Origin: an uncultured Geobacter sp.
GTDB taxonomy: Bacteria; Desulfobacterota; Desulfuromonadia; Geobacterales; Pseudopelobacteraceae
Direction: 5' to 3'
Length of the DNA: 64,000 nt
Assembly (NCBI GenBank): GCA_964622705.1
Contig: CAZUSH010000005.1
Coordinates: 11,389 to 75,388 of the forward strand
In this document: positions 12,045-52,101 of the stretch, piece after piece
Position numbering within the stretch: position 1 is the stretch's first letter
Layout of the letters: every line of letters begins with the position of its first letter
The notes under the pieces: model-generated
Told to the model about the DNA's origin: nothing
The model's database searches: none
What the model saw: only the letters and a program-made list of their open reading frames with translations
Translations under genes and position numbers: made by a program

Positions 12045-12063
12045 GTCATGCGGGTACTTGTGC

Positions 12064-12092
12064 TTGACCGTCGTATTGGGACTCTGCATAAT
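12064..12092 (+). promoter_or_regulatory. Putative sigma70 promoter (near-leaderless) for methyltransferase-HAD pair
   Basis: TTGACC-17 nt-CATAAT, 8 nt upstream of ATG 12101; no SD. Confidence 0.55.
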
Positions 12093-12100
12093 CGCGAACC

Positions 12101-13866: not shown

Positions 13867-14029
13867 TATGGCTAAAAGTATTTTTGATAACTGCAGTTTT
13901 GAATCCCCGGATTAAACGTCTCACATTATTTTAGAACAATGTTAGTAGATCTACTTGCCTTTTTCAGCAGCTTTGCTCTAAGATGCCCTCATTTTCGTGC
14001 CGCTTCCCGGCGCTTATGGAGGTAACCCC

Positions 14030-28685: not shown

Positions 28686-28778
28686 GTAAAAGGGCCTTAA
28701 CATCTACAACACTTGAACGATTTTGTCCAGATTTTTGATGTGTACGGCAAAAATCCGGTCGTACTTGCTAGGACGCTG

Positions 28779-29699: not shown

Positions 29700-30611
29700 A
29701 TGGCCCACAGCATGGTGGTGATAGCGGTACTGTTCCTGCTGGGTCTACTGTCCGGCTGTACCAGAGAGCCGGATATTCAAGGACCCCGGGTTGGAACAAA
29801 GCTCCCCGGCGCCGGGAAGCCGGTTTTCAGTTTCGCGGTCCATCCTCTGCATAATCCCGCCAAATTGATTGCGGCGTACCAGCCTCTGATTGACTACCTG
29901 AACAGCAACATGCAGGGCGCACACCTGAGCCTGGAGGCGTCACGGGATTACGCCAGCTTTGAACAGAAATACCTGGCCCGGAAACCCGCCTTCATCCTCC
30001 CCAACCCCTGGCAGACGCTGCAGGCTGAAAAGGCCGGGTACCACGTCATTGCCATGGCGGGGGAACCAGGCGATTTTACGGGCATCTTTATCGTGCGCCG
30101 TGATAGCGGCATCAAGACCCCGGCCGACCTGAAAGGGAAGGCGGTCAGTTATCCCTCCCCCTCGGCCCTGGCGGCCTGCATCATGCCGCAGTATTTTCTG
30201 CATACCCACGGTATCGACGTCACGAAAGCGATTGAAAACCGCTACGTAGGCTCCCAGGAATCCTCCATCATGAATGTCTATCTGGGCAAGACCGCTGCCG
30301 GCGCCACCTGGCCGGTGCCGTGGCGCGCCTTTCAGCGGGAGCATCCCGCAGAGGCCGCACAGCTGAAGATGCTTTGGGAAACGGAGCCGCTGATCAATAA
30401 CTCGGTCATGGCGCGCAATGACATGCCGCCTCAGCTGGTCGCACAGGTGCAACAGTTGCTGCTTAATCTGGAACAGGCGCCCGGCGGCAAGGCGATTCTG
30501 CTTGGGATGGAAACCGCGCGGTTTCTGCCCGCCGATAATGCGCGTTATGAGCTGGTACGCGCCTATGTTGCCCGTTTTGAACGGAACGTGCGACCGGTGG
30601 AGGCGCCTTGA
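29700..30611 (+). CDS. PhnD-like periplasmic substrate-binding lipoprotein (orphan)
   Basis: Lipobox LLSGC; FAVHP, DLKGKAVSYPSPSALAA, YVGSQESS. Confidence 0.88.
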   Translation: MAHSMVVIAVLFLLGLLSGCTREPDIQGPRVGTKLPGAGKPVFSFAVHPLHNPAKLIAAYQPLIDYLNSNMQGAHLSLEASRDYASFEQKYLARKPAFILPNPWQTLQAEKAGYHVIAMAGEPGDFTGIFIVRRDSGIKTPADLKGKAVSYPSPSALAACIMPQYFLHTHGIDVTKAIENRYVGSQESSIMNVYLGKTAAGATWPVPWRAFQREHPAEAAQLKMLWETEPLINNSVMARNDMPPQLVAQVQQLLLNLEQAPGGKAILLGMETARFLPADNARYELVRAYVARFERNVRPVEAP

Positions 30612-33448
30612 TGCTCACTACCCTGTATCGATTGCTGACCAAGACCCTGCGGGGTCGGCTGATCATTGGTGTTGCGCTGGTGCATGCGTTCATGATGGCG
30701 CTGTTCGTCGCCGACCTGACCAAACGTCAGCGTGCCATGCTGCTGGAGCACCAGGCCGATCATGCGATATCCCTGTCGCAGACCCTGGCCACTTCCGCGG
30801 CTGGCTGGATCGCTGCCGACGATATTGCCGGGTTGCAAGAACTGGTAGAGGTGCAACGGCGCTATCCTGATCTTGTTTTTGCCCTGCTGACCGACCGGCA
30901 AGGGCTGGTGCTGGCGGATACGGACAGCGCCAGGCGGGGACTCTACCTGCAGGATCTTTCCGGAGAGGTCCGCCAGCAGGTCTTCTCCCGCAGCGGGGCA
31001 CTGGTGGACGTGGCGACTCCGGCGTTCATCGGAGGACGGCACGTCGGCTGGGCGCGGGTCGGTATCGGCCAGAAAAAGGTTGGGCAGGAACTGGCTGCCA
31101 TCACCAGGAACGGTATAGGCTATGCCGTAGCGGCCATCCTGCTTGGCTCCGTCATCGCCTGGTTCATGGGGACACGGATCAGCAGGCGGCTCTATGCCGT
31201 GCAAAAGACCATTGACCGCATCGGATCAGGCGAGCGGACGGCCCGTACGCTGCTGGACGGAGTGGATGAAGCCGCTGTCATGGCGCGGGAGTTCAACGCC
31301 ATGCTGGACCAGCTGGACGAACGCGATGCCGAACTGCGGAGCAGTGAAGAACGCTACCGCTCGCTGATCCGAAAGGTACCGGCGGCAATCGTCCTGCATG
31401 ACGGGCAGGGCAGGATTCTGGACAGCAATCCGTTGGCCGGGGAGCTGCTGGGACTTTCCGCCGACCAACTCGTCGGCAGAGAACTGATCGATCCCCAGTG
31501 GCACTTTCTCCGTGAGGACGGTTCACTCCTGCCGGTGGATCAGCTGCCGGCAGCACAGGTTATCGCAACGCGGCAGGCGATCAGCAATCTGATCGCCGGT
31601 ATCCGGCGCCCTGACCGGGACCAGCTTGCCTGGGTGCTGATCAGTGCTGAACCTGAATTTGATGCGTCCGGTGACGTTCGGCGCGTCATCGTTTCGTTCA
31701 TCGACATCTCCGAGCGTAAACGGACGGAGCAGCAGCGGCTGGGCAACCTGCCCTTTTTTGAGAGCATGGATCGGATCAACCGTGTGCTGCAAGGAACCGC
31801 CGACCTTGAAGAGATGCTGGATGCCGTGCTTGATGCCGTACTTTCGGCCTTCGGCTGCGACCGGGCCTTCCTGCAGCACCCGTGCGACCCTGCTGCGCCG
31901 TCTTGGCTCGTAGCGGCGGAACGTTGCCGCCCCGGTTATCCGGGGATGTCGGAACCGGGGCAGGAAATGCCGATAACTCCGGAGGTAGCCGAAACAGTTC
32001 AAATCATGCTGGATGCCGACGGACCGGTCTGTTTCGGTCCGGGCAGCTCCTATCCGCTTCCTGCTGACACGGCTAAACGTCTCGGCTTCAAGAGCTTCAT
32101 GGCCATAGCCATCCGCCCCAGAAGCGGCGCAGTCTGGCTGTTCGGCATCCACCAGTGCTCCTACGCCCGCACCTGGACCGAAGGGGAACAACGGCTTTTT
32201 CAGGAAATCGGCAGACGACTGGCCGACAGCATGAGCACGCTGCTGATCTGCCGGACCCTGCAAGAGAGCCAGGAACGCTATCGCCTGGTGTTTGAAAACT
32301 CGCCGGTCTCAATCTGGGAAGAGGACTTTTCCGAGGTGCGGGTCTTCTTCGACATGCTTCGAGCCGGGGGCATTGAAGATATTGCGGCCTACTTCGATCA
32401 GCACCCCGAGGAGGTGGCACACTGTGCCGAAAAGGCGCGTATTGTCGACCTCAACCGCAGTACTGTGCTGTTACATGGCGCCGACAGCAAGGAGACGTTG
32501 CTTGCCGGATTGGTCCAGACCTTTACCCCGGACTCCTTTGACGCCTTCCGGCAGGAACTGATCTGTCTCTGGAACGGCGATACCCGGATGGTACGGGATG
32601 CCGAGGTCAAGACCCTTGCAGGGGAGCCGCGGCAGGTAACCGTGCACTTCTCAGTCTGCCCGGGCTATGAGCAGAGCCTTGCCAAGGTGCTGGTATCGTT
32701 GGTGGATGTTACTGAGCGCAAACGGGCTGAGGAGGAGGTTCGCCTGAATCTGGCGCAACAGATGGCGCTACTGGATGTCTATCAAAAGATGCCTACAGCG
32801 CAAGTGCCTGAAATAATATCGTTTGTCGTGGATAAGTGTGTCAGCCTGACCGAAAGCATGATCGGTTTTGTCGGGATTATCAGTGACGACGACAGCTTCA
32901 TGGAGGCCCATTTGTGGTCTGCCCGGGTCATGGAGAGCTGCCCCATCGATAAACCGCTCCGCTTCCCGCTCAGCGATGCCGGACTCTGGGCCGGACCGGT
33001 CAGACAACGCCGTGTCGTCACCGTCAACGACTATGCGGCAGACAATCCGCTGAAAAAGGGCTATCCGGCGGGGCACCTCTCGCTGACCCGTTTCATGGGG
33101 GTGCCGCTGATCGACAATGGCCGGGTTGCGGCGGTTGCCGCTGTAGCGAACAAGCACGAGCCCTACGACGATGCTGACCACTACAAGATCTCGTTGATGC
33201 TGAAGGGGATGTGGGACATCATGAAGCGGAAGATGGCCGAAGAAGCGCTGCACACGCTCAACGAAGAGCTTGAGCAGCGGGTTCGGTTACGCACCGCCGA
33301 GCTGGCCGAAAAACATGATGAGCTGCAGCGGATGAACAAGATGTTTGTCGGTCGGGAGCTGCGGATGGTGGAGCTGAAGGAACGGGTCAGGGAGCTGGAG
33401 GCAGGCGCAGGCATGCCTCCAGCCGCCGTTGCAGGAGGTTCCAAATGA
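30611..33448 (+). CDS. Sensor-only protein 1: TM-periplasmic-TM-HAMP-PAS-GAF-PAS-GAF + 'VGREL' cap; no kinase domain
   Basis: HAMP (DEAAVMAREFNAM), PAS/PAC (SFIDISERK, VDVTERK), two GAFs; ends MNKMFVGRELRMVELKERVRELE; no H/N/G boxes. Confidence 0.88.
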   Translation: MLTTLYRLLTKTLRGRLIIGVALVHAFMMALFVADLTKRQRAMLLEHQADHAISLSQTLATSAAGWIAADDIAGLQELVEVQRRYPDLVFALLTDRQGLVLADTDSARRGLYLQDLSGEVRQQVFSRSGALVDVATPAFIGGRHVGWARVGIGQKKVGQELAAITRNGIGYAVAAILLGSVIAWFMGTRISRRLYAVQKTIDRIGSGERTARTLLDGVDEAAVMAREFNAMLDQLDERDAELRSSEERYRSLIRKVPAAIVLHDGQGRILDSNPLAGELLGLSADQLVGRELIDPQWHFLREDGSLLPVDQLPAAQVIATRQAISNLIAGIRRPDRDQLAWVLISAEPEFDASGDVRRVIVSFIDISERKRTEQQRLGNLPFFESMDRINRVLQGTADLEEMLDAVLDAVLSAFGCDRAFLQHPCDPAAPSWLVAAERCRPGYPGMSEPGQEMPITPEVAETVQIMLDADGPVCFGPGSSYPLPADTAKRLGFKSFMAIAIRPRSGAVWLFGIHQCSYARTWTEGEQRLFQEIGRRLADSMSTLLICRTLQESQERYRLVFENSPVSIWEEDFSEVRVFFDMLRAGGIEDIAAYFDQHPEEVAHCAEKARIVDLNRSTVLLHGADSKETLLAGLVQTFTPDSFDAFRQELICLWNGDTRMVRDAEVKTLAGEPRQVTVHFSVCPGYEQSLAKVLVSLVDVTERKRAEEEVRLNLAQQMALLDVYQKMPTAQVPEIISFVVDKCVSLTESMIGFVGIISDDDSFMEAHLWSARVMESCPIDKPLRFPLSDAGLWAGPVRQRRVVTVNDYAADNPLKKGYPAGHLSLTRFMGVPLIDNGRVAAVAAVANKHEPYDDADHYKISLMLKGMWDIMKRKMAEEALHTLNEELEQRVRLRTAELAEKHDELQRMNKMFVGRELRMVELKERVRELEAGAGMPPAAVAGGSK
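33260..33401 (+). repeat. VGREL cap copy 1 (142 bp)
   Basis: Near-identical to 37597-37738; colinear with the other four copies. Confidence 0.9.
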
Positions 33449-35781
33449 GCGTTGACAGACTCATTTTCAGGCACCACACAATGGGTATGCTCGGGCTGTT
33501 GTTCATGCTTACGCCGGCACCCGGCCAGGCAGCCGAGTTGGCCGACATGGATATTGCCGAACTGGTGAACGTGCGGGTGACTCCCTTTGACGTTTCGGCC
33601 CATCTGGACTGCGGCTACCGTGCTTCCAACTCCGTATCGGGGTCTCGATTTGACACCCCGATACGGGATCTGCCTTTTGCCATCCAGGCCTTTACCGAAG
33701 AGTTCATCAAGGACCAGAAGCCGGTGAACATCTTTGATGTGGCACGGTATTCACCGGGTGTTACCTACCGCAGCAATGACTTTAACGAAGGCAATGCCAA
33801 CGTGGCCATTCGCGGCTTTGCGGTCAGTTCCACTCCCGGTAACGTCCAGATCCTGCGCGACGGCTTCCATGGCCCCTCGATCTTCGATTTCACCAACATC
33901 TCCCGGGTGGAGGTGGTCAAGGGACCTGCCTCGTTCCTCTACGGCCAAGTTGCTCCCGGTGGTGTTGTCAATGTGATTACCAAGAATCCGCAACCGGTTT
34001 TTGCCGCAACCGCCGAGTCCCGCTACGGTTCTTACGGCCAGTATCGTTTTGAAGGGGACGTGACCGGTCCGGCAACCAAAACTCTCTTCTACCGGCTCGC
34101 GAGCTCCTATGACCAGGATAGTCATTACTGGAACCCCTACGATGCACATTCCTGGGACGTTGCGCCCTCGCTGCTCTGGCAACCCAATGACCGCCTGAGC
34201 GTATCGCTCAAATATGAGACCTTTCAGAAGCTGGAAACACCGCAGTTGATGCAGAAGCCGGGTTACAACACCCAGGCCGGTGTTGTGCCGACAGCAAGCG
34301 ATCCCAATCTGTCCGGGGTTGATGTGCCGGGATTGCCGGATACCTGGAACAGCATGTCCTATGCCGATTTTCGAAGAAGCGAGACCCATGCCTTCAGCAG
34401 TTGGATTGACTTCAAGGCCGGCTCGCACTGGAACCTGCGGGCCGGTTATTCGCACCTGGAGTACGAGATCGACGCGCTCTTCTCCGGCAACCTTGGTATG
34501 GCCAACAACAGCACATTTCTGCAGGGACGCCGCTTCAGGCGTCAGACATACAACAATCAGGACGATACGGTTCAGTTGGATGGCGTTGGAGCCTACAACC
34601 TTACCTGGAGCAATTTACGCCTGCTCTTTGGTGGACAGTATGTCGATAGACGTTTTGACAGTCGTGCCGGCCAGGCTCCCAACGACCCGGCTCTTGGCAG
34701 CAATCCCACGGCCTCGCCGCTGCCGCTCTGGGATTTGCGAGATCCTTCTACCTGGAACCGAGTGGTAACCATCCCGCTTTCTGCGCTGACAGAGAACAGG
34801 TCTGACAACTCACTCGCGGCGACGGACATGTCGGTTTACGGCGGGATAAACTGGAGTTTCCTGAATGACCGCTTGCTGGTGCTTGCCGGTCTGCGCCTGA
34901 CGGCAACGGAAAGCCGCCTTACGAATCAGCTGACCGGCCAATCCCAACCCAGGATCACTGCAAACGCGCTTACTCCGCAATACGGCTTGCTCTACAAGGT
35001 TACACCGGGGCTCTCACTGTTTGCCTCCTATGCCGAATCGTTCGTACCCGGCACACAATTGCTCAATACGATTGACGGGAACACCAGGGCCGCCGAACCG
35101 ACCAGGGGATGGGGCTACGACGCCGGTCTCAAGGCGGATCTGTTCGACGGCCGTGTCTCCGGCACGCTCACCTGGTTCGATATTCGCAACCAGAACATTG
35201 TCAACGACCTTGCCGTGACAAACTCGTCCGGCTCCGTGGTTATCTACAACGTACAAAGTGGCGAACAGCGCTCCAGCGGCGTTGAGCTTGACGTCACGAT
35301 CACGGCAACGGACAACTGGCAGCTCTATCTTTCCTACAGTTACATGGATGCAAAAATAACGGAATTCAGCGGAAACGACGCTGCTATCCTTGCCCAGAAT
35401 CCTGCCACCCTGGATGCCGCAGGATTGGCCAACTACAAAAACGTGAAACGGTTCCATAACGCCCCATTACAGATGAGCGCTCCCCATCTGGTCAACTTCT
35501 GGACCCGCTACAACTTTAGTGAGAGTACCCTCACAGGGGCCTACGTGGGTGGCGGCATCAACTTTGTCTGCGATCAGACCCTGCTGCCCGATACCCCGGA
35601 GTCGGCACACCAAACCTATGTCCTGGTCAATGCGCTGGCCGGTTACGCATGGAAGTGGGGAGGCCACAGACTTAATCTGGAATTGACGGGAAAAAACCTA
35701 GCCGACGAGCAGTACCGGCCATCGCAAAGTTCACGCAGCCGTCCCCGTGAATTCCTGCTGACACTTACCGCCAGGTTCTGA
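33445..35781 (+). CDS. TonB-dependent outer-membrane receptor
   Basis: Plug (IRGF, VEVVKGPASFLYG), barrel ending LTARF; N-terminal DMDIAELVNV motif. Confidence 0.92.
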   Translation: MSVDRLIFRHHTMGMLGLLFMLTPAPGQAAELADMDIAELVNVRVTPFDVSAHLDCGYRASNSVSGSRFDTPIRDLPFAIQAFTEEFIKDQKPVNIFDVARYSPGVTYRSNDFNEGNANVAIRGFAVSSTPGNVQILRDGFHGPSIFDFTNISRVEVVKGPASFLYGQVAPGGVVNVITKNPQPVFAATAESRYGSYGQYRFEGDVTGPATKTLFYRLASSYDQDSHYWNPYDAHSWDVAPSLLWQPNDRLSVSLKYETFQKLETPQLMQKPGYNTQAGVVPTASDPNLSGVDVPGLPDTWNSMSYADFRRSETHAFSSWIDFKAGSHWNLRAGYSHLEYEIDALFSGNLGMANNSTFLQGRRFRRQTYNNQDDTVQLDGVGAYNLTWSNLRLLFGGQYVDRRFDSRAGQAPNDPALGSNPTASPLPLWDLRDPSTWNRVVTIPLSALTENRSDNSLAATDMSVYGGINWSFLNDRLLVLAGLRLTATESRLTNQLTGQSQPRITANALTPQYGLLYKVTPGLSLFASYAESFVPGTQLLNTIDGNTRAAEPTRGWGYDAGLKADLFDGRVSGTLTWFDIRNQNIVNDLAVTNSSGSVVIYNVQSGEQRSSGVELDVTITATDNWQLYLSYSYMDAKITEFSGNDAAILAQNPATLDAAGLANYKNVKRFHNAPLQMSAPHLVNFWTRYNFSESTLTGAYVGGGINFVCDQTLLPDTPESAHQTYVLVNALAGYAWKWGGHRLNLELTGKNLADEQYRPSQSSRSRPREFLLTLTARF

Positions 35782-35848
35782 GATGCTGTTAAGAGCTACC
35801 GTACATAGGCCAGTGAAGCCGGGCTGCTGCGCAGCAGAAGACGGCGAC

Positions 35849-36469
35849 ATGCGGCATGCTTCCGCGCCGCTGAGTATCCGGCAGCAGATTGGCCCGCTGC
35901 TGCGGCGCTACGCTCCAGCCATGTTGTTAGTCCTGTTTTACCTGTATTGCCTTGCAAGTCCGGCAATCGGTCAAGAGTTTGCCAAAGCTGACCCGATCAG
36001 GATTGAAGCGGCGATTTTACGCAATTTTGCCCGCTACGTCACCTGGCCGCACCATGCCTTCAAAGATACTCATCTGGCTTGGCGTATCTGCATCCTCGGG
36101 GATGATCCATTTGGCCAGGTACTGGAAAAGACCTTTGAAGGACGTACGGAACAGGGACGTTCGTTTCAGGTATTCCGGGCAGAGACGCTGGAAGAACTAC
36201 CGCCGTGCCAGATCGTCTTTATCGCCTATCAAGACGCTGCAAAACGCCGTGCGGTCCTGGAACTGCTTAAGAAGCAACCGGTCCTGACCGTGAGTGCTGC
36301 CCCTGACTTTTTGCAAGAAGGGGGGATCATCCGCTTCAAGGTCACAGATCGGGTGGAGATGAGCGTCAACCTTGATCAGGCCCGCTCCTCCTCGCTGAAG
36401 ATTCAAACCAAGATGCTTGAGGTTTCCCGTGAAGTGCTGGAGAACGGAATCGTACGGAGGTTGAGATGA
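35849..36469 (+). CDS. YfiR/DUF4154-family periplasmic protein
   Basis: IEAAILRNFARYVTWP, ICILGDDPFG, CQIVFI, PVLTVS, GGIIRF, VNL; start uncertain (35783 possible). Confidence 0.9.
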   Translation: MRHASAPLSIRQQIGPLLRRYAPAMLLVLFYLYCLASPAIGQEFAKADPIRIEAAILRNFARYVTWPHHAFKDTHLAWRICILGDDPFGQVLEKTFEGRTEQGRSFQVFRAETLEELPPCQIVFIAYQDAAKRRAVLELLKKQPVLTVSAAPDFLQEGGIIRFKVTDRVEMSVNLDQARSSSLKIQTKMLEVSREVLENGIVRRLR

Positions 36470-37770
36470 TCCGGCTTCACGGCATGAGCATACACAACAG
36501 GCTGACATTTGCACTCTGGTGCGCTGCGCTCTTTGCCTTTGCCGCAGCAGGCGTGGCGTTGGCGCTGTTTGAGAACCTCACGCAGGAGGGACGTGCACGC
36601 CAGATCATGGAACCGTACGCGCAGCTCGTTTCCGCCGGGGCTGAAACGGCAATAGCCTTTCAGGACTCCGTGCGGGCTGAAGAGATTCTCACGCCACTGC
36701 GGGCCAATGCGCAGATTTTGACAGCAGAAATCGTTTTGCGGGATGGACGGATGTTAGCCCGCTACAGCAGTGCCGGTACCCCTTTGCAAGCCCAGCCGCT
36801 TAAACCGGACGGGATCCACCTGAGTCATGACACGGCGGAGCTGATACAGAGGTTGCATGACGATGCCCATCTGCGCCTTGTCATGAGCCTGGGTGAGCTT
36901 AACCGGCAGATGAGAAACATGCTGCTGCTCTTTGCCGCAGGGATGCTTGTCTTGCTGGTGGTCGTTACGTTGGGGTTGCGTGCGGCCCTGCAACGCGTCA
37001 TTGTCCAGCCCATCTCCGCCCTGGCCGAGACGGTTGAACAGGTTCGTATCAGGGCTGATTATCATCAACGTGTCCCGGTCTTCGGCAACGATGAGGTGGC
37101 ACGGCTCGGCCGGAGCTTCAACGCCATGATGGAGGCTGTTCAGGTGCGGGAAGATAATTTGCGTCAACTTGCGATCTTTCAGAGCACTATTCTGGACAAT
37201 GCGGCCTACGGCATCATTGCCACCACTACCGAAGGGGTTGTCAGCAGCTTTAACCGGGCAGCTGAACAGTTACTCGGCTACCGGGCCGATGAACTGGTCG
37301 GCAGACAGACGCCGATCTGCTGGCATGAAGCAGGGGAGCTGGCGCAGTACGCGCTTCATCTCTCCACAGAGCTGTCCGAAACGGTTCAGCCCGGATTTGA
37401 GGTGTTTACGACCCGTCCCCGGCGCAACCAGCCGGAAGAACATGAATGGACCTTTATCCGTAAGGACGGGACGCGTGTGCCGGTGTTGCTCTCTGTAACG
37501 GCATTGCGGGATGAAAACCGTCAGATCATTGGATTTGCCGGTCTGTGCTATGATCTCACGGAACGCAAACAGGCAGAGGAAGAACTCCGCCAACTGAACG
37601 AAGAGCTTGAGCAGCGGGTATGGTTACGTACCGCCGAACTGGCCGAAAAAAACGATGAGCTGCAGCGGATGAACAAGATGTTTGTCGGTCGGGAGCTGCG
37701 GATGGTGGAGCTGAAGGAACGGATCAGGGAACTGGAGGAACAGCTCCGGACAAACGGCAACGAAGCCTGA
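36466..37770 (+). CDS. Sensor-only protein 2: CHASE8-like-HAMP-PAS + VGREL cap
   Basis: AIAFQDSVRAEEILTPLRANAQI...DGRMLARY, HAMP (DEVARLGRSFNAM), PAS; ends FVGRELRMVELKERIRELE. Confidence 0.88.
   Translation: MIRLHGMSIHNRLTFALWCAALFAFAAAGVALALFENLTQEGRARQIMEPYAQLVSAGAETAIAFQDSVRAEEILTPLRANAQILTAEIVLRDGRMLARYSSAGTPLQAQPLKPDGIHLSHDTAELIQRLHDDAHLRLVMSLGELNRQMRNMLLLFAAGMLVLLVVVTLGLRAALQRVIVQPISALAETVEQVRIRADYHQRVPVFGNDEVARLGRSFNAMMEAVQVREDNLRQLAIFQSTILDNAAYGIIATTTEGVVSSFNRAAEQLLGYRADELVGRQTPICWHEAGELAQYALHLSTELSETVQPGFEVFTTRPRRNQPEEHEWTFIRKDGTRVPVLLSVTALRDENRQIIGFAGLCYDLTERKQAEEELRQLNEELEQRVWLRTAELAEKNDELQRMNKMFVGRELRMVELKERIRELEEQLRTNGNEA
37597..37738 (+). repeat. VGREL cap copy 2
   Basis: Only about ten mismatches to copy 1 by manual comparison. 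Confidence 0.9.
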
Positions 37771-37785
37771 AAGGAGATACCTCGG

Positions 37786-38838
37786 ATGCGCATAATCAGA
37801 CTGCTGGCTATCGGCGGACTTATAACGGCAGGTATGGCCGGATCGGCATGGGGTAAGGAGTTCCGTGTCGGGGTGTTGTACTGGTCGGGCAACATCCCGG
37901 GCCAAGTGGCCATGAGCAAGGGGTTGGAGGCCGAGGCCCGCAGGATCAACACCGAGGCCGTTGCCAAAGGCAGGCCCACCGTCAAACTGCTGCTGCGCAC
38001 CGCCGGGGATGGCGGCAGCGGTATCGAAAGACAGATCAGCCAAATGAGGGAGCTGATTCACGACAAGGTGGACCTGCTGGTCGTGCAGCCCACTGACAAC
38101 GCTGCCCTGGCCGAGCCGCTGCGTATGGCCAACCGGGCCGGTATCCCGGTGGTGGCCTACGACCAGTATATCAGCGGCGGTACCCTGGCGGCCTACCGGA
38201 CCTCCGACAACTACCAGGCCGGTTATCTGGACGGCGAGTATATCGCCTCCCGTTTTCCCAAAGAAAAACAACTCCGCATTGTGCTGGTGGAATATCCCCA
38301 TGTCTCCTCTACGGTAGAGCGGGTTAACGGTTTCTTGGAGGCGTTGGAGCAGGCGGGGCAAAAGTACCGGGTGCTGAAGTCCTACTCGGCAGTTGAGCCG
38401 GTCGGCGGCGCAAAGGCCGGGACCGCCCTGTTGAAAGATTTTCCTGAGCGCGGTTCGATTGATGTGGTCTTTACCGTGAATGACGGCGGTGGGCTGGCCG
38501 TTGTGGACAAGCTGGCCAAGGCGGGCAGGCATGAGATCATGGTGGCCACCATCGACGGCGATCCGGCCTCGGTCAAAAATATTCGCGAGGGGCGACTGAC
38601 GGTGATCGACGCGGCTCAGTTCTGCGGTCCCCTTGGTGCCGAGGCGCTCAAGACGGCCTATGCGCTGCTCAACAAGGAAAAGACACCCTACCATGCGCTG
38701 GTACCGGTATTCCCGATTACCAGGGAGACGCTCAAGCGCTATCCCGGCTGGATGGGACCGATTCCAGCCGCCTTTGCGAAACCCTGGAAAAGTTCTGTGC
38801 AGCAGTGGCGTGGCGCCATGCGTATTGTCAAACCGTAA
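37786..38838 (+). CDS. RbsB-like sugar-binding periplasmic protein (orphan)
   Basis: Signal peptide; VDLLVVQP, GIPVVAYD, SDNYQAG, NDGGGL, IDG. Confidence 0.88.
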   Translation: MRIIRLLAIGGLITAGMAGSAWGKEFRVGVLYWSGNIPGQVAMSKGLEAEARRINTEAVAKGRPTVKLLLRTAGDGGSGIERQISQMRELIHDKVDLLVVQPTDNAALAEPLRMANRAGIPVVAYDQYISGGTLAAYRTSDNYQAGYLDGEYIASRFPKEKQLRIVLVEYPHVSSTVERVNGFLEALEQAGQKYRVLKSYSAVEPVGGAKAGTALLKDFPERGSIDVVFTVNDGGGLAVVDKLAKAGRHEIMVATIDGDPASVKNIREGRLTVIDAAQFCGPLGAEALKTAYALLNKEKTPYHALVPVFPITRETLKRYPGWMGPIPAAFAKPWKSSVQQWRGAMRIVKP

Positions 38839-38873
38839 TGATCCGTCTTTTAGGACGAGTGGAGAGGTAGGTC

Positions 38874-40448: not shown

Positions 40449-40463
40449 AAGGGGATAACCACC

Positions 40464-43229: not shown

Positions 43230-43879
43230 GTGCGCACGACAAACCATCCGAAACGATTTTCTCGATGCTCACCATCACGGCCCTGGTGCTCGGTATCTAC
43301 ATCAGCGGCCAGTATAGCTTTCTTTTGTTCCACGGACTCGTCGAGCTCGTCAGCATGTATGACGTTGCCAACAAGCTCGGCCACATCGCCAAGCTGGTGG
43401 CGTTCTATCTGATGTACCGGGCGATACTCGTCACCGGTCTCAAGGAACCTTTTGAAGTTGTCTTCAGAACGTAAAAGCCAACGGAACAGGAACTGCGCGA
43501 GTACCAGGAAACCCTGGAAGAACGGATCAGGGAACGGACCGTGCAACTGGAACTTGAAATCACCGGACACAAACAGACCGAGGAAGCGCTTCAGCTTCAA
43601 ACCGCCGGACTTGGACAGGAGATGGCCAAGCGGCAGAGGGCGCAAGAGGCGCTGCAGCAAAAGGCGATCCTGTTGAAAAAAGAGAGCGAAAAACGGCAAC
43701 AGGCTCAGGAAGAACTGGAAAAATTGAACGAGCAACTGGAGCAGCGGGTACAGCAGCGTACTGCCGAACTGGAGGCAAAAAACGTCGAACTATCCCGCAT
43801 GAACAAGATCTTCGTCGGTCGAGAGCTGAAGATGATCGAGCTGAAAGAGCGGATCAGAGAGCTGGAAAACGAGAGGTAA
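43226..43879 (+). pseudogene. Sensor-only protein 4 (pseudogene): internally deleted MASE3 + in-frame TAA + VGREL cap
   Basis: 43226-43474 and 43541-43879 are in the same frame, separated by TAA at 43472; MASE3 N- and C-ends joined directly. Confidence 0.8.
43727..43868 (+). repeat. VGREL cap copy 4
   Basis: MNKIFVGRELKMIELKERIRELE; colinear. Confidence 0.85.
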
Positions 43880-43885
43880 TATTTG

Positions 43886-45901
43886 ATGATCACGGATCAT
43901 GCCCCTACGGCGGCAACCGGATTTACCCCGAGCGACGGACATCTCAACCGCGCCTTGTACGCTGCAACGACAGTCGGTATCCTGTTCGGAATCTACGCGA
44001 GCAGCCTGTATAACTATCTTTTGTTTCACAGCCTGGTCGAAGTTGCGACGGTTGCCGTCGCCTTTGCCCTGTTTGCCTTCACCTGGAGCGCCCGCCGTTT
44101 TCTGAGCACCGGTTGCCTCAAGGTAATCGGCATCGGCTACGGCCTGATAGCCCTGATTGACCTTTTGCATACCCTGGCCTATAAGGGTATGGGCGTTTTC
44201 CCGGGCTATGATGCCAACCTGCCCACCCAGCTCTGGATCGCCGCTCGTACCCTGCAGGCGATCCTGCTCTGCATCGCACCGCTCTATGCCCGGCGCAATC
44301 TTGATGAACGGCATTTCTTCATGCTTGCCCTTGTTGCAACGGCAACCGCTACGGCACTGGTCTTTGCCGGGGTGTTTCCCGACTGCTTCATCGAGGGCAA
44401 GGGACTCACTCCCTTCAAGATTGCAGCAGAATACGTCATCAGCGCCGTCCTTGTCGCTGCGCTCGCACTTTTCGTTAGTGTGCGGACGTCGTTCAACAGC
44501 AGGGTGTTCGTGCTCCTGGTTGCCGGGATCCTCTGTACCATCGGTTCCGAATTGGCCTTTACCTCCTACATCAGTGTCTATGGTCCCGCCAACATGGCGG
44601 GGCACCTTCTGAAGCTGGCCGCCTTTGCCCTGGCCTACCTGGCTCTGATCGATACCGGCTTCAAGGAGCCGTTTGAACTTGTTTTCCGGGACCTGCAACA
44701 GGCCGGACAGCGGTTGCGCGAGCATCAGGAAACCCTGGAAGACCGGATCAGAGAACGGACCGCTGCGCTTGAAAGCATGAATGAGACCCTTGCAGAGGAG
44801 GTGCGGGAGCGTATCCGGGCCGAGGATGCCCTGCAGCGCCTGAACCGCGAGTTGCGTGCCGTCAGCACCTGCAATCAGGTGTTGATGAAGGCGGTGGACG
44901 AGGCCGGCCTGCTGGCTGAGATCTGCCGGATTGTCTGCGACGAGGCCGGCTACCCCATGGCCTGGGTGGGCTATCCCGAAAACGATGCGAACCGGACCGT
45001 ACGGCCGATTGCCTGGGCCGGTGTGGAGGGGGACGCGCTTGCAACGGCACATGTCAGTTGGGCCGACACCGAACGGGGATATGGCCCTGCCGGCGTGGCG
45101 GTCAGAACGGGCAGGGTGGATTGCTCGCAGGACTTCAGTGCCGACCCGCGTATGCTCCCCTGGCGGGAAAAAGTCCTGCAGCGGGGATATCACTCCTGCA
45201 TTGCCTTGCCGCTCAAGGATGATCGGGCGGCGGTCTTTGGCGTGCTGTGCATCTATTCGACGGAAGTAAATGCCTTCACGCCGGATGAAACCCGGCTTCT
45301 GGAGGAACTGGCGAACGACCTGGCATTTGGCATGTGCATGCTGCGAAGTCGCAAGGCTCGTAAAGAGGCTGAACAGCGAAGTGTTCTCCTTAGTTTTGCT
45401 CTCGATAACGTACGCGAGGCGACCTTTCTGATCGACGAACAGGCGTACTTTCACTACGTCAACGAAGAGGCGTGCCGTCTGCTCGGCTACAGTCGCGACG
45501 AATTGCTCGGTCTTGGTGTGGCCGATGTGGACCCTGATTTTCCACGGGAACTCTGGCCGGCGCATTGGGCGGAACTGAGGCAACACCGCTCCCTCACCTT
45601 TGAGGGGCGGCACAGAACCAAGGAGGGTACGCTCATTCCGGTTGAGATCAACGCCAACTACCTGGAGTACGACGGCCGGGGGTTCAATCTGGCCTTGGTG
45701 CGCAATATCACCGAACGCAAGCGTTCGGAAGAGGAAATCCGAAAACTTAATCAGGACCTGGAACAACGCGTAACAGAACGTACCGCCGCGCTTGAGGCGA
45801 AAAACCTGGAACAGGAAAAGATGCTCAGGGCGTTTGTCGGCAGAGAGCTGAAGATGGTCGAACTGAAAAAGAAGATTGAACAGCTTGAGAAATCATCCTG
45901 A
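43886..45901 (+). CDS. Sensor-only protein 5: MASE3-GAF-PAS + VGREL cap
   Basis: NYLLFHSLVE...LHTLAYKGMG...TQLWIAAR MASE3 signature, GAF, PAS; ends FVGRELKMVELKKKIEQLE. Confidence 0.88.
   Translation: MITDHAPTAATGFTPSDGHLNRALYAATTVGILFGIYASSLYNYLLFHSLVEVATVAVAFALFAFTWSARRFLSTGCLKVIGIGYGLIALIDLLHTLAYKGMGVFPGYDANLPTQLWIAARTLQAILLCIAPLYARRNLDERHFFMLALVATATATALVFAGVFPDCFIEGKGLTPFKIAAEYVISAVLVAALALFVSVRTSFNSRVFVLLVAGILCTIGSELAFTSYISVYGPANMAGHLLKLAAFALAYLALIDTGFKEPFELVFRDLQQAGQRLREHQETLEDRIRERTAALESMNETLAEEVRERIRAEDALQRLNRELRAVSTCNQVLMKAVDEAGLLAEICRIVCDEAGYPMAWVGYPENDANRTVRPIAWAGVEGDALATAHVSWADTERGYGPAGVAVRTGRVDCSQDFSADPRMLPWREKVLQRGYHSCIALPLKDDRAAVFGVLCIYSTEVNAFTPDETRLLEELANDLAFGMCMLRSRKARKEAEQRSVLLSFALDNVREATFLIDEQAYFHYVNEEACRLLGYSRDELLGLGVADVDPDFPRELWPAHWAELRQHRSLTFEGRHRTKEGTLIPVEINANYLEYDGRGFNLALVRNITERKRSEEEIRKLNQDLEQRVTERTAALEAKNLEQEKMLRAFVGRELKMVELKKKIEQLEKSS
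45749..45890 (+). repeat. VGREL cap copy 5
   Basis: Colinear, most divergent copy. Confidence 0.8.
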
Positions 45902-45943
45902 TTGCGCCGGATTATACAGCCGGCAGGCACAAGGAGAGGAACC

Positions 45944-46813
45944 GTGCGATCCATATTGCATAAAATCATTTTCGTCTGCCTGCTGCTGTGTTCTTTGTCG
46001 CTATCCCGTATGCTCTGTGCAACCGCCCTGGCTGTTGAAGAACCTGCCCCGGTCTACACCTTTGGGGTGGTGCCCCAGTTTGAACAGCGCAAACTCTACG
46101 CCATCTGGCAACCGATCATTGCCGAACTGACCAGACGTACCGGCTTCAAATTTAAGCTGGTTACAACGTTGAGCATTGAAAGCTTTGAAAAGGAGTTTAT
46201 GAGCGGTGGATTTGATTTTGTGTATATGAACCCCTACCATATTCTGAAGGCTCCCCGTTATCTACCGCTGGTTGCCGATACCGTGCCGTTGCGCGGCATT
46301 CTCGTGGTCCGCCGGGATTCACCGCTACGGAGCCTCAAGGAGCTGGAGGGAAAGGAGGTCGCCTTTCCCTCGCCCAACGCCCTGGGCGCCTCTTTGCTGA
46401 TGCGGGCGGACCTCGCACGGGTGCAGCGGATCAAGGTGAAGCCGCTGTATGTCAAGACGCATAGTTCGGTCTACCTGCATGTTGTGCAAGGGCTGACGGC
46501 AGCCGGTGGCGGGGTTGAAAAGAGTCTGAGCGAACAGGCGCCGGCCATCCGCAATGCCCTGCGGGTCATCTATACGACACGGGAGATGACGCCGCATCCC
46601 GTCGCGGCCAATCGGCGCATCCGGCCAGCTGACCGGGAGAAACTGCGGCAGGCCCTGCTGGCGATGGACGCGACCCCGGAAGGAAGGGCGCTGTTGGCGA
46701 ATATCCCCACCAAAGGGCTCATGCCGGTTTCCCGGGCCGACTATGAGCGGATGCGCGCCTGGGGGCTGGATGCCTACTGGGTCGACCTGTGGAAATCAGG
46801 GGCGAACCGATGA
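45944..46813 (+). CDS. PhnD-like periplasmic substrate-binding protein (orphan)
   Basis: Signal peptide; FGVVPQ, YMNPY, ELEGKEVAFPSPNALGAS, THSSVY; GTG after GGAGAGG. Confidence 0.88.
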   Translation: MRSILHKIIFVCLLLCSLSLSRMLCATALAVEEPAPVYTFGVVPQFEQRKLYAIWQPIIAELTRRTGFKFKLVTTLSIESFEKEFMSGGFDFVYMNPYHILKAPRYLPLVADTVPLRGILVVRRDSPLRSLKELEGKEVAFPSPNALGASLLMRADLARVQRIKVKPLYVKTHSSVYLHVVQGLTAAGGGVEKSLSEQAPAIRNALRVIYTTREMTPHPVAANRRIRPADREKLRQALLAMDATPEGRALLANIPTKGLMPVSRADYERMRAWGLDAYWVDLWKSGANR

Positions 46814-48423: not shown

Positions 48424-48453
48424 TACCGCAAACCGTAAGGAGCACCTTGGGTT

Positions 48454-50412: not shown

Positions 50413-50785
50413 CAGCGATAATCTGCGCTTGATCAGCTATGCCCTGCGTCGCTGCGGTTACGAGGTGCTAGCTGCCGATACCGGTGAAAAGGGGGTGGAA
50501 CTGGCTGTCAGCGAGCACCCCACCTTCATCATCATGGATATCAACCTGCCCGATATCGACGGCCTGGAGGCCACTCGGCGCATCCGCAAAAGCGGGGCCA
50601 ACGGCAGTATCCCGATTATTGCCATCACCTCCTACGCCATGGCCGGCGATATGGATCAGGTATTGTCTGCCGGTTGCACCGGTTATTTTGAAAAGCCGAT
50701 CGATCCGTTGACTATCATGGACAAGATCCATGCCCTGTTGGGTATCGTGTCGCCGAACGCGGACGGAACGGGGGACTCGCCATGA
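50384..50785 (+). CDS. Single-domain response regulator (DivK-like)
   Basis: VVED, IMDINLPDIDG, AITSYA, FEKP. Confidence 0.93.
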   Translation: MKKVLVVEDNSDNLRLISYALRRCGYEVLAADTGEKGVELAVSEHPTFIIMDINLPDIDGLEATRRIRKSGANGSIPIIAITSYAMAGDMDQVLSAGCTGYFEKPIDPLTIMDKIHALLGIVSPNADGTGDSP

Positions 50786-52101
50786 AGGTTCTGATTGTTG
50801 AAGACAACGCAAGCGCCAGAAAGCTGTTACGGTTGACGCTTGAGCACTACGGTTGCACGGTGATCGAGGCCCAGGATGGGGTGGAGGGGCTGGAACTGGC
50901 AGGTTGCCACACACCGGAGGTTATCATCTCAGATGCCCTGATGCCGCGCATGGATGGTTTCCAATTGCTCAGGGCCCTTAAAGCGGAGCCGGCGCTGCAA
51001 TCCATCCCGTTCATCTTTTACTCATCCACCTACACCGGCGAGAAGGAACAGACGTTGGCCCTTTCGCTCGGCGCTGAGGCATTTATTAACAAGCCGGTGG
51101 AGCCAACTGAGCTGTGGGAACGTACCTGTGCCATCATGCGAGATTGGGAATCGCGCCGGAAGACGCCGGCCCATCCGGTGGAGCAACGCAAAGATGAACA
51201 ATTTCTGCGCGAGTACAGCCAGGTGGTGGCCACCAAGCTGGAGGAAAAAGTCAGTGAGTTGGAAGATGCGCTGGCCTTGCGTAAACAGGCTGAAGAAGAA
51301 CTCCGGCGTCTGAATAATGAACTGGAGCAGCGCGTTGCCCTTGAGGTGGAAAAAAACCGGGCCAAGGATCATATTCTGGCCCACCAGGCCCGTCTGGCCG
51401 CCATGGGTGAAATGCTCAGCAATATTGCCCATCAGTGGCGCCAGCCCCTAAATAATGTCGCCTTGATTATTCAGAATCTGCAGGCTGAATTTACCGATAA
51501 ATGCCTGACTCAGGCCGCCTGCGACGAATTTACGGAGGAATGCCTGAAGATGCTGGGGTATCTGTCGCACACGATCGACACCTTCTGCGGATTTTATCAA
51601 CCTGACCACGAGCGGCAGTCGTTTGAGTTGAGGCAGGCCATCGCCGAGTCGCTTGGGCTGGTCCAGGCCGATCTTGAGGCCTGCGGCATTGTCGTCTCGC
51701 TGGCTACATCGTGCGATCTGGTCATTCACGGCTACCGCAAAGAGTTTTTGCAGGTGCTGTTGAGTCTCGTGCAGAATGCCAAGGAAGCGCTCTTGCTGCA
51801 GCAGCCGTCTCAGCCGTTGATAGAAATCAGCTGTTTACAGGAGGGAGAGCGTGCCGTGCTCAAGGTTGCCGATAACGGCGGTGGCATCCCGCCTGAGGCT
51901 ATGGATAAGATCTTCGATCCTTACTTCACGCGTAAATTTAAGGCGCAAGGGGTGGGAATGGGCCTCTATATGGCCAAAATGATTATTGAGAGGCATATGG
52001 GCGGTCATATTGCCGTCGCTAACCGGTCCGATGGCGCCGAAGTAACCATCAGCCTCCCGTTGGCAGGAGTCTCTGAGTACACAGGGGGCGTTCAGAAGTA
52101 A
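50782..52101 (+). CDS. N-terminal receiver + histidine kinase
   Basis: VED, ISDALMPRMDG, NKP; IAHQWRQPLN, DNGGGI, FDPYFT, GVGMGL. Confidence 0.92.
   Translation: MKVLIVEDNASARKLLRLTLEHYGCTVIEAQDGVEGLELAGCHTPEVIISDALMPRMDGFQLLRALKAEPALQSIPFIFYSSTYTGEKEQTLALSLGAEAFINKPVEPTELWERTCAIMRDWESRRKTPAHPVEQRKDEQFLREYSQVVATKLEEKVSELEDALALRKQAEEELRRLNNELEQRVALEVEKNRAKDHILAHQARLAAMGEMLSNIAHQWRQPLNNVALIIQNLQAEFTDKCLTQAACDEFTEECLKMLGYLSHTIDTFCGFYQPDHERQSFELRQAIAESLGLVQADLEACGIVVSLATSCDLVIHGYRKEFLQVLLSLVQNAKEALLLQQPSQPLIEISCLQEGERAVLKVADNGGGIPPEAMDKIFDPYFTRKFKAQGVGMGLYMAKMIIERHMGGHIAVANRSDGAEVTISLPLAGVSEYTGGVQK

What the first reader, a model, noticed from the sequence alone, without database searches (positions are those of the whole stretch)
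29700..52101. Candidate new signalling system: array of kinase-less sensors sharing a 'VGREL' docking cap, co-encoded with a few kinases
Seen: six ORFs (30611, 36466, 38874, 43226 pseudogene, 43886, 46810) carry different input domains but no HisKA/HATPase/GGDEF/EAL/REC. Each ends in the same 47-aa segment: an S-helix-like xxxLEQRVxxRTAELxxKxxE followed by (M/L)xxxFVGREL(R/K)MxELKxxxxxLE and a stop. There are no indels between copies (the Phe codon is always +84 nt from the segment start). The full kinase at 40464 shares the first 24 residues (from 42327) and then continues into its DHp, so the cap replaces the DHp at a defined position. This is not random truncation: each stop is followed within 0-43 nt by a different intact gene. 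The array also has three complete kinases and a DivK-like regulator, all on one strand with many start/stop overlaps. Established: S-helices transmit signals in dimeric sensor kinases, and multikinase networks (GacS/RetS) and split kinases exist. Inference: the cap is an interaction module that lets interchangeable sensor-only subunits heterodimerise with or dock onto a shared kinase, forming a plug-in many-inputs/one-output integrator. I know of no named family for it, but could not run a search.
Basis: partly seen in the sequence, partly recalled or inferred. Interest (0 to 1): 0.92.

Follow-up and report, generated by a model that had tools for sequence, protein, structure and literature searches.

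The report
Kinase-less sensors sharing a docking helix
A Geobacter-family bacterium carries a 22-kb row of sensor proteins that have no enzyme part but all end in the same unnamed 55-residue helix, a widespread module that probably plugs many sensors into one shared signalling kinase encoded next door.

Summary
Six + strand ORFs (five intact, one decayed) have only input domains and end in the same gapless ~55-residue segment. It is a generic S-helix followed by an invariant F-x-G-R-E-x-x-M-x-x-L-K stretch and a stop.

The cap is not a local oddity or a truncation:
- A profile finds 1,489 protein clusters (E<=1e-10) in bacteria and archaea.
- It is C-terminal in 141 of the 142 best and in 126 of 128 ORFs found by pattern.
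- It follows PAS, GAF, HAMP, REC or MASE3 domains, and no catalytic output was seen.
- Pfam, NCBIfam, PDB and the literature searches give it no name.
- AlphaFold2 predicts one continuous helix.

Cap genes sit upstream of a histidine kinase that carries a conserved 'ALMNIVEDL' insert. The insert starts exactly 38 residues before the phospho-His in 23 of 23 cases. It is present in 18 of 44 kinases downstream of cap genes and in 0 of 74 other kinases. A single REC and a REC-kinase follow.

In a Trichlorobacter relative, the input half of one cap sensor is fused directly to the core of that last kinase.

Best reading: the cap is a docking/output helix that couples interchangeable sensors to a shared kinase. 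Binding itself is not shown.

The parts
29700..30611 (+). Periplasmic binding protein (Phosphonate-bd type), paired with sensor A
   Evidence: Pfam PF12974, 178 bits. Its stop overlaps the next start by 4 nt.
30608..33448 (+). Sensor A: sCache_3_2-HAMP-PAS-GAF-(unassigned)-GAF-cap; cap at 33239-33400
   Evidence: Pfam; cap HMM 101.9 bits, 12 residues before the stop; orthologues in L053 and L129 with dN/dS 0.17-0.18
33445..35781 (+). TonB-dependent receptor
   Evidence: Pfam Plug + TonB_dep_Rec_b-barrel
35783..36469 (+). YfiR-like periplasmic protein (DUF4154), paired with sensor B
   Evidence: Pfam PF13689, 139 bits; NCBIfam NF053591, 118.9 bits, just below its cut-off of 125
36466..37770 (+). 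Sensor B: CHASE8-HAMP-PAS-cap; cap at 37576-37737
   Evidence: Pfam. The N-terminus resembles NF053592 'sensor histidine kinase, YfiR-like protein-associated' (107 bits, cut-off 194), but there is no kinase core. Cap HMM 103.2 bits.
37786..38838 (+). Periplasmic binding protein (Peripla_BP_4), paired with sensor C
   Evidence: Pfam PF13407, 136.6 bits
38874..40448 (+). Sensor C: membrane N-terminus-PAS-PAS-cap; cap at 40239-40400
   Evidence: Pfam; cap HMM 102.1 bits; L053 orthologue with dN/dS 0.13
40464..43229 (+). Complete kinase: ABC_sub_bind-GAF-S-helix-HisKA-HATPase. It has no ALMNIVEDL insert.
   Evidence: Pfam. It matches only cap-profile positions 1-31 and then continues into the H-box.
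43226..43879 (+). Decayed MASE3 sensor. TAA at 43472-43474; a 112-aa ORF (43541-43879) retains a coiled coil and an intact cap (43706-43867).
   Evidence: Translations; stop position; cap HMM 102.3 bits; the same MASE3 fragment occurs in an independent ENA contig
43883..45901 (+). Sensor D: MASE3-GAF-PAS-cap; cap at 45728-45889
   Evidence: Pfam MASE3 253.7 bits, GAF, PAS; cap HMM 94.3 bits, 1 residue before the stop
45902..46813 (+). Periplasmic binding protein (Phosphonate-bd), paired with sensor E
   Evidence: Pfam; 73% identical to the binding protein upstream of the fused kinase in L133
46789..48423 (+). Sensor E: membrane N-terminus-HAMP-PAS-PAS-cap; cap at 48223-48384
   Evidence: Pfam; cap HMM 98.5 bits; residues 8-360 are 70% identical to residues 1-343 of the full kinase in L133
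48454..50412 (+). Candidate shared kinase: membrane N-terminus-PAS-PAS-long coiled coil-HisKA-HATPase. The S-helix-to-His linker is at 49552-49737 and the 'ALMNIVDDL' motif at 49606-49632.
   Evidence: Pfam; motif coordinates; the motif starts 38 residues before the His, as in all 23 such kinases; the same kinase type follows cap genes in L002, L003, L007, L068, L084, L093, L114 and L123
50384..50785 (+). Single-domain receiver (REC)
   Evidence: Pfam Response_reg 89 bits; conserved directly after the kinase in related loci
50782..52101 (+). REC-histidine kinase, the last member of the cassette
   Evidence: Pfam REC + HisKA + HATPase; residues 167-432 are 68% identical to the kinase core fused to sensor E's input in L133

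Best explanation
The array encodes modular, kinase-less signal receivers. Each pairs a periplasmic binding partner with a membrane sensor made of PAS/GAF/HAMP-type domains. Each sensor ends in a ~55-residue continuous alpha-helix, the 'cap'. The cap is a generic S-helix (LNxELEQRVxERTAEL) extended by about five heptads that carry an invariant F-x-G-R-E-x-x-M-x-x-L-K signature.

Shown:
- The cap is a widespread, selected, strictly C-terminal output module of PAS, GAF, HAMP, REC and MASE3 proteins in bacteria and archaea.
- It is genetically coupled to a cassette of a histidine kinase, a single REC and a REC-kinase.
- In that cassette, the first kinase often has a conserved 'ALMNIVEDL' coiled-coil insert fixed 38 residues before its phospho-His.

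Inferred:
- The cap helix docks on this pre-DHp segment of the kinase dimer, either as a mixed helical bundle or by coiled-coil strand exchange.
- The signalling state of each sensor's S-helix is thereby passed in trans to the kinase's DHp.
- Several sensors and REC-cap regulators compete or sum at one kinase (48454 here).
- That kinase then signals through REC 50384 and REC-kinase 50782 to an unidentified output.
For: Family-level C-terminal position:
- 1,489 clusters at E<=1e-10.
- 141/142 of the best representatives end a median of 7 residues after the cap.
- 126/128 ORFs in loci found with the position-blind pattern FVGREL[RK]M do the same.

Only input domains occur in 95 and in 83 independent members. 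These are PAS, GAF, HAMP, REC, MASE3, Cache, PocR and CHASE.

Selection acts on the protein. Third codon positions are saturated between paralogues, and orthologues have dN/dS 0.13-0.24.

Structure: one helix spanning residues 2-73, with pLDDT about 98-99 across the conserved cap.

Synteny: cap gene(s), then kinase, then REC, then REC-kinase. This holds in the window and in Nitrospirae, Geobacteraceae and ANME-2 archaeal contigs, often with ATGA start/stop overlaps.

The insert tracks with caps:
- It is present in 12/19 adjacent and 6/25 further-downstream kinases. It is absent from the 14 other kinases in cap loci (p=0.003) and from 60 kinases in loci without caps (p=1.6e-8).
- In the reciprocal test, 4/5 insert-bearing kinases have a cap ORF upstream, against 0/4 kinases without the insert.
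- The insert starts exactly 38 residues before the His in 23/23 kinases, across four H-box types. It lengthens the ERT-to-His linker from 18/25/32 to 46/53 residues, keeping the heptad phase.

Natural fusion: the L133 kinase consists of sensor E's input (70% identity) joined to the 50782 kinase core (68% identity), at the same chromosomal site and with the orthologous binding protein upstream.

Cap proteins stand where kinases normally stand. The N-termini of sensors B and D match NCBIfam kinase families.
Against: - No binding, modelling of a complex, or expression data were obtained.
- Only 18/44 downstream kinases carry the insert. Several cap loci show no kinase nearby (L085, L088, L101, L127). 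One insert-bearing kinase has no cap within 18 kb (L138).
- REC-cap genes usually follow hybrid kinases that lack the insert, so their target may differ.
- The comparison with loci lacking caps is confounded by taxonomy, and the sample sizes are small.
- In the two nearest-neighbour groups the S-helix repeats could cause recombination by themselves, so the L133 fusion may be an accident that was tolerated.
- A conserved coiled coil could serve homodimerisation alone.
Confidence: 0.5

Rival explanations
1. The cap is only a homodimerising coiled-coil zipper that stabilises the sensor dimers. These proteins act through other surfaces (PAS-PAS contacts, sequestering ligands or binding proteins) or have no dedicated downstream partner.
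For: AlphaFold2 gives a plain long helix with heptad periodicity. The first half is the generic S-helix. About half of the cap loci show no insert-bearing kinase.
Against: A generic zipper would not keep an invariant F-x-G-R-E-x-x-M-x-x-L-K signature from Geobacteraceae to ANME-2 archaea. By heptad assignment (inference), that signature places a Gly and an Arg in or next to the core. A zipper would also not be strictly terminal, nor track with a specific kinase insert.
Confidence: 0.2
2. The cap is a docking helix for some other partner: the single REC, the REC-kinase, or a protein encoded elsewhere.
For: The kinase-REC-REC-kinase cassette accompanies caps more widely than the insert does. REC-cap genes follow hybrid kinases that lack the insert. 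The L133 fusion links sensor E to the 50782 core, not to 48454.
Against: The same cassette exists without caps and without the insert (L140). In these loci the insert is the only feature found that is specific to cap neighbourhoods.
Confidence: 0.2
3. The cap proteins act as dominant-negative subunits (like Id proteins). Their S-helix/cap forms a mixed coiled coil with one kinase chain and gives an inactive half-kinase. The array would then be a set of signal-dependent inhibitors rather than activating inputs.
For: The cap and the kinase linker share the S-helix and continue in the same heptad phase. The cap HMM even scores the linker of the L084 kinase. Short cap-only ORFs exist.
Against: Nothing distinguishes this from bundle docking. 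It is a sub-variant of the best explanation with the opposite sign.
Confidence: 0.08
4. The ORFs are truncated or decaying kinases, assembly artefacts, or DNA repeats kept for cassette recombination.
For: One member is a pseudogene (43226). An independent assembly breaks near a cap repeat. S-helix repeats evidently mediate rearrangements (L133).
Against: The same end point recurs in hundreds of clusters. There is purifying selection. Synonymous sites are saturated while the peptide stays invariant. Orthologues in L053 and L129 are full length.
Confidence: 0.02

Closest known systems
Signalling helix (S-helix; Anantharaman, Balaji & Aravind 2006, PMC1592074)
   Same: The first ~30 residues of the cap (LNxELEQRVxERTAEL) are an S-helix. 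The same sequence precedes HisKA, GGDEF, HD-GYP and PAS domains in other loci, and it is helical with heptad periodicity.
   Different: The S-helix is described as lying 'almost always between two signaling domains'. Here it is terminal, extended by a specific 25-residue signature, and followed by a stop.
Chemoreceptor (MCP)-CheW-CheA arrays
   Same: Concept only: many receptors with different inputs share a conserved helical cytoplasmic end that couples them to one shared histidine kinase.
   Different: There is no MCPsignal domain, no CheW or CheA, and no methylation apparatus in the array. The partner here would be a classical HisKA kinase.
Stressosome RsbR paralogues (variable sensor N-termini, shared C-terminal STAS docking domain, RsbT kinase)
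   Same: Concept only: paralogous sensors with a shared C-terminal docking module co-assemble with a kinase.
   Different: The docking module here is a single helix, not a STAS domain. The kinase is a two-component histidine kinase, not a serine kinase.
RetS-GacS-LadS multikinase network
   Same: One sensor protein modulates another kinase through helix-helix (DHp) contacts instead of phosphorylating its own regulator.
   Different: RetS and LadS are full hybrid kinases with DHp and catalytic domains. The cap proteins have neither.
Stand-alone sensors that control a neighbouring kinase (H-NOX or NosP with NahK; short LOV/PAS proteins)
   Same: The sensor and the kinase are separate polypeptides encoded side by side.
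   Different: Those sensors are single globular domains without a shared docking helix. The cap's weak NCBIfam matches to the NahK and NosR linkers are far below cut-off: whole-protein scores are 24-41 bits (NahK) and 18-22 bits (NosR) against cut-offs of 1500 and 400. They lie in coiled-coil linkers.
NCBIfam kinase families NF053592 (kinase near YfiR-like protein) and NF047874 (MASE3-PAS kinase)
   Same: Sensors B and D share the N-terminal input architecture and, for B, the TonB-receptor/YfiR-like gene neighbourhood.
   Different: Scores are below the curated cut-offs, and the kinase core is replaced by the cap.

Membership tests
S-helix (signalling helix) | A ~40-residue alpha-helical heptad segment with a conserved core motif (the ExRT type) | tested here: met
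   LEQRVxERTAEL is invariant or nearly invariant. The same segment occurs in front of many output domains. AlphaFold2 predicts a helix with pLDDT 98-99.
S-helix (signalling helix) | Lies between two signalling domains as a connector | tested here: not met
   The cap is followed by a stop within a median of 6-7 residues in 141/142 and 126/128 proteins. The paper's definition was read.
HisKA / DHp phosphoacceptor domain | Conserved phospho-accepting His in a helical hairpin | tested here: not met
   The cap consensus has no His, Pfam gives no HisKA hit, and the model is a single unbroken helix.
Sensor histidine kinase | HATPase_c catalytic domain | tested here: not met
   It is absent from the five intact sensors. 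It is also absent from the 25 most frequent families in 95 and in 83 family members.
NF053592 kinase associated with a YfiR-like protein (sensor B) | Score above the curated cut-off, and a kinase core after the N-terminal domain | tested here: not met
   107.3 bits against a cut-off of 194 (N-terminal domain only), and no kinase core.
NF047874 MASE3-PAS histidine kinase (sensor D) | Score above the curated cut-off, with a kinase core | tested here: not met
   214.5 bits against a cut-off of 560. The match covers MASE3 only.
Methyl-accepting chemotaxis protein | MCPsignal hairpin domain | tested here: not met
   No PF00015 hit in any cap protein. The only MCP in the window is at 13997-16126.
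Pseudogene / truncated kinase | Relaxed selection, variable end points, full-length kinases at the same place in relatives | tested here: not met
   dN/dS is 0.13-0.24. The end point is fixed family-wide. L053 and L129 keep cap proteins. The exception is 43226, which is decayed.
Proposed cap-kinase docking system | Physical binding of the cap to the kinase's pre-DHp insert | not testable with these tools
   Only monomer AlphaFold2 was available. The support is genomic association alone.

The most novel reading that the evidence does not exclude
Classical two-component kinases can be run like chemoreceptor arrays. A family of interchangeable, kinase-less sensors and REC-cap response regulators uses a dedicated terminal helix (the cap). 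It would dock on a matching four-heptad module placed 38 residues before the phospho-His of a shared kinase. Many inputs would then be summed in trans at one DHp. The system would be ancient enough to be shared by bacteria and ANME/Methanosarcinales archaea.
Probability: 0.4. Interest if true: 0.85.

Novelty: new variant of a known kind. Interest (0 to 1): 0.75.

Why it matters
Thousands of 'PAS/GAF sensor proteins' with no recognisable output are annotated in anaerobes, methanogens and methanotrophic archaea, and it is not known how they signal.

If the cap is a docking helix for a matching kinase insert, several things follow:
- These orphan sensors gain an output.
- A new protein-protein module for two-component signalling is defined.
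- The large sensor arrays of Geobacter-like bacteria are explained.
- S-helix signals would be shown to pass between separate polypeptides.

The cap-insert pair would also be a compact, natural part for rewiring sensors to kinases in synthetic biology.

The L133 fusion and the variable content of this chromosomal site show how such networks grow and shrink by recombination at S-helix repeats.

Tried and rejected
- **Word-indexed protein search with the caps.** It returned almost only short fragments and said nothing about architecture. The exhaustive profile search replaced it.
- **Genome scan.** It was swamped by the generic S-helix pattern and gave only about 10 full-cap loci. The metagenome scan was therefore run with the second half alone.
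- **Helical hairpin idea (a turn at FVG giving a mini-DHp).** Rejected: AlphaFold2 gives one unbroken helix.
- **Resemblance of 'FVGRE..' to the N-termini of sigma-54 activator or STAND/AAA_16 ATPase domains.** There is no Pfam support, and the only PDB match is weak (9m0n, E=0.15). Treated as chance.
- **DNA repeat or gene conversion.** Rejected because third codon positions are saturated.
- **Assembly artefact for the pseudogene.** An independent contig shows the same MASE3 fragment.
- **PDB sequence search.** Nothing covers the cap.
- **Literature searches for the motifs and for sensors without outputs.** Nothing relevant beyond the S-helix paper.
- **Promoter/terminator scan.** No enrichment and no signal in the intergenic gaps, so it was uninformative.
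- **NCBIfam on the cassette proteins.** No model reaches its cut-off.
- **Covariation between cap and insert.** Too few pairs (about 20) to attempt.
- **A single-chain AlphaFold2 run across the 46789/48454 junction.** Considered and dropped, because the tool reports no contacts.
Full report
**1. Observation**

The region 29700-52101 holds 15 co-directional genes plus one decayed gene (split into two ORFs), with gaps of -29 to +66 nt.

A six-frame search finds exactly six copies of the FVGRE-type segment. All are on the + strand, all inside this region, and all lie 1-12 residues before a stop. The six segments align without gaps and have 25 invariant columns.

Pfam gives the carriers only input domains:
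- A (30608): sCache_3_2-HAMP-PAS-GAF-GAF
- B (36466): CHASE8-HAMP-PAS
- C (38874): PAS-PAS
- D (43883): MASE3-GAF-PAS
- E (46789): HAMP-PAS-PAS

The sixth carrier (43226-43879) is a MASE3 remnant. It has an in-frame TAA at 43472 and a large internal deletion. An independent ENA contig carries the same MASE3 fragment.

A, B, C and E are each preceded by a gene for a periplasmic partner: a phosphonate-type binding protein, a TonB receptor plus a YfiR-like protein, Peripla_BP_4, and another phosphonate-type binding protein.

Between paralogues, third codon positions differ at 24-32 of 54 codons while the peptide is conserved. The repeat is therefore kept at the protein level. The exception is A/B, which are 90% identical in DNA.

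**2. The cap is a large, unnamed, strictly C-terminal family**

A profile of the six caps was run against 1.84 billion representative proteins. It finds 11,590 clusters at E<=1e-3 and 1,489 at E<=1e-10. Of the 142 best representatives checked, 141 end a median of 7 residues after the cap. The exception is a kinase with repeated S-helices.

A second sample does not depend on the profile ranking. Metagenome loci were found with the DNA pattern for FVGREL[RK]M, which is blind to position in the protein. That sample gives 128 complete cap ORFs, of which 126 stop within 23 residues.

Pfam was run on 95 representatives and on 83 ORFs from the loci. It shows PAS, GAF, HAMP, REC, MASE3, Cache, PocR, CHASE, VUPS and SBP domains among the 25 most frequent families. 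It shows no HisKA, HATPase, GGDEF, EAL or HD.

Carriers come from Geobacteraceae, other Deltaproteobacteria, Nitrospirae and an ANME-2 archaeon. A shorter variant (xFNxxxVGRELxMIELKKEVNxL...) ends proteins in Bacteroidales and Nitrospirota.

No Pfam or NCBIfam model covers the second half of the cap. No PDB chain contains it. Six literature searches, two of them for the motifs themselves, found no description.

The first ~30 residues are the generic S-helix. The same sequence runs into HisKA, GGDEF, HD-GYP or further PAS domains in other proteins. [quoted passage not shown]

AlphaFold2 with an 84-sequence alignment predicts one continuous helix (residues 2-73), with pLDDT about 98-99 across the conserved cap.

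**3. Not truncation**

Syntenic relatives (L053, L129) carry full-length orthologues of A, B and C with the same ends and dN/dS of 0.13-0.24.

**4. Genomic coupling to one kinase type**

In the window and in many loci the order is: cap gene(s), kinase, single REC, REC-kinase. The loci include L002 (Nitrospirae, four cap genes), L003 (Geobacteraceae), L007 (ANME-2), L068, L084, L093, L114 and L123. The cap gene's stop often overlaps the kinase start.

These kinases share a conserved segment between the S-helix and the H-box: xALMNIVEDLNxKTxELExAN. Counts of kinases carrying the motif are as follows:

| Kinase group | With motif | Comparison |
|---|---|---|
| Immediately downstream of a cap gene | 12 of 19 | |
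| Further downstream, same strand | 6 of 25 | |
| Other kinases in the same loci | 0 of 14 | Fisher p=0.003 |
| Kinases in loci without caps | 0 of 60 | p=1.6e-8, confounded by taxonomy |

A reciprocal test started from kinases of the same HisKA subfamily. Of five with the insert, four have a cap ORF upstream: L129, L130, L136, and a fragment in L137. L138 does not. Of four without the insert, none has one. This includes L140, which has the full kinase-REC-REC-kinase cassette.

The geometry of the insert is fixed. It starts exactly 38 residues before the phospho-His in 23 of 23 kinases, although these have four different H-box types. It lengthens the ERT-to-His linker from the usual 18, 25 or 32 residues to 46 or 53, always in the same heptad phase.

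**5. A natural fusion**

A housekeeping protein (adenosylhomocysteinase) is 95% identical to that of Trichlorobacter lovleyi, which places the window in Geobacteraceae.

The array lies between a PNP_UDP_1 gene (28713) and a carotenoid-synthesis-like gene (52106, - strand). The content of this site varies between relatives:
- L134 and L135: empty.
- L129: a shorter array with the same kinase cassette.
- L133: only a binding protein plus one complete kinase.

The L133 kinase is a composite. Residues 1-343 are 70% identical to sensor E's input (residues 8-360). Residues 344-609 are 68% identical to the kinase core of 50782 (residues 167-432). The upstream binding protein is 73% identical to 45902. 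The junction lies in the S-helix, at 'RKQAEE..LNNELEQR'.

Whichever direction the event went, sensor E's input and the cassette's last kinase are joined in one protein in a close relative. This is Rosetta-stone-type evidence that they belong to one pathway. It also shows that the S-helix repeats are recombination points.

**6. Cap as an output of response regulators**

REC-cap proteins make up 8/95 and 13/83 of the members sampled. They typically follow hybrid kinase-REC genes, as in L061, L063, L070, L074, L078 and L005/L052. The cap is therefore a general output module, not only a sensor ending.

**7. Mechanism**

Shown: the module, its terminal position, selection on it, its helical nature, and its association with the cassette and the insert.

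Inferred: the cap docks on the kinase's pre-DHp insert and passes the sensor's S-helix state to the DHp in trans. Several sensors would converge on 48454, which then signals via 50384 and 50782.

By my own heptad assignment (inference), the invariant Arg of G-R-E falls at a core position next to a Gly. That would disfavour a tight homodimer and favour a specific partner.

The main weaknesses:
- No interaction data exist.
- The insert is present in only 18/44 downstream kinases.
- Some cap loci have no nearby kinase.
- REC-cap genes sit next to kinases without the insert.

I put 0.5 on docking to the insert-bearing kinase. The rest is spread over a plain dimerisation role, a different partner, and a dominant-negative variant.

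**8. Comparison and novelty**

The first half of the cap is an S-helix, but the cap fails the S-helix's positional definition. It is not a DHp: it has no His and forms no hairpin. The proteins are not kinases.

Functionally the nearest analogies are chemoreceptor arrays, stressosome RsbR paralogues, RetS-GacS, and stand-alone sensors such as NosP with NahK. None of these uses this module.

Accessory sensors for kinases are a known kind. A dedicated terminal docking helix shared by hundreds of different sensors, with a matching kinase insert, appears to be undescribed. I therefore class it as a new variant of a known kind, with a substantial chance of being a distinct signalling architecture.

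Noticed in passing
window 28713-29543 to 52106-52951; L129, L133, L134, L135: The site between the PNP_UDP_1 gene and the carotenoid-synthesis-like gene varies between relatives. It is empty in two Trichlorobacter-like contigs, holds a binding protein plus one chimeric kinase in L133, a short array in L129, and the 22-kb array here.
   Followed up: yes
window 43541-43879; L061:10102-10398; L110:2654-2851: Short ORFs (65-112 aa) consist of little more than a cap. Many 40-120-aa cap-only proteins are in the database, some on long contigs. They may be remnants, or free cap peptides that compete for the docking site.
   Followed up: partly
L084:5084-7376; also L052 and L061: A trio of B12-binding protein, URO-D-like methyltransferase and DUF1638 protein recurs between cap genes and the insert-bearing kinase.
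   Followed up: partly
L102:1654-5730; L113:1296-5365: A cap sensor and its kinase (variant insert 'ATLNLLEDM') follow a block of rhomboid, three KaiC-like ATPases, UbiA and a V4R protein. This is probably an archaeal context.
   Followed up: no
window 32240-32800 (sensor A residues ~545-730): About 180 residues between the two GAF domains of sensor A have no Pfam assignment except a PAS_4 second hit. A similar stretch recurs in L011 ('FENSPISLWEEDFSEVKKF').
   Followed up: no
window 4195-5217 (-): The protein combines an MshEN domain (a c-di-GMP-binding type) with a C-terminal receiver domain.
   Followed up: no
window 11031-13237: An HTH-WYL-WCX regulator lies next to a Methyltransf_28 gene. 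An MCP of class 40H is at 13997-16126.
   Followed up: no
window ~43730: An independent ENA assembly of the same sequence (k141_135444) ends here, inside the decayed sensor and just before its cap. This is consistent with assemblers breaking at the cap and S-helix repeats.
   Followed up: partly
L140:8745-13363: The kinase, single REC and REC-kinase-REC cassette also exists without caps and without the kinase insert. Caps plus insert therefore look like an add-on to an older cassette.
   Followed up: partly
loci L010-L050 and cap loci: The distance from the S-helix ERT motif to the phospho-His is quantised in heptads (11, 18, 25, 32, 46, 53 residues) across unrelated kinases.
   Followed up: yes
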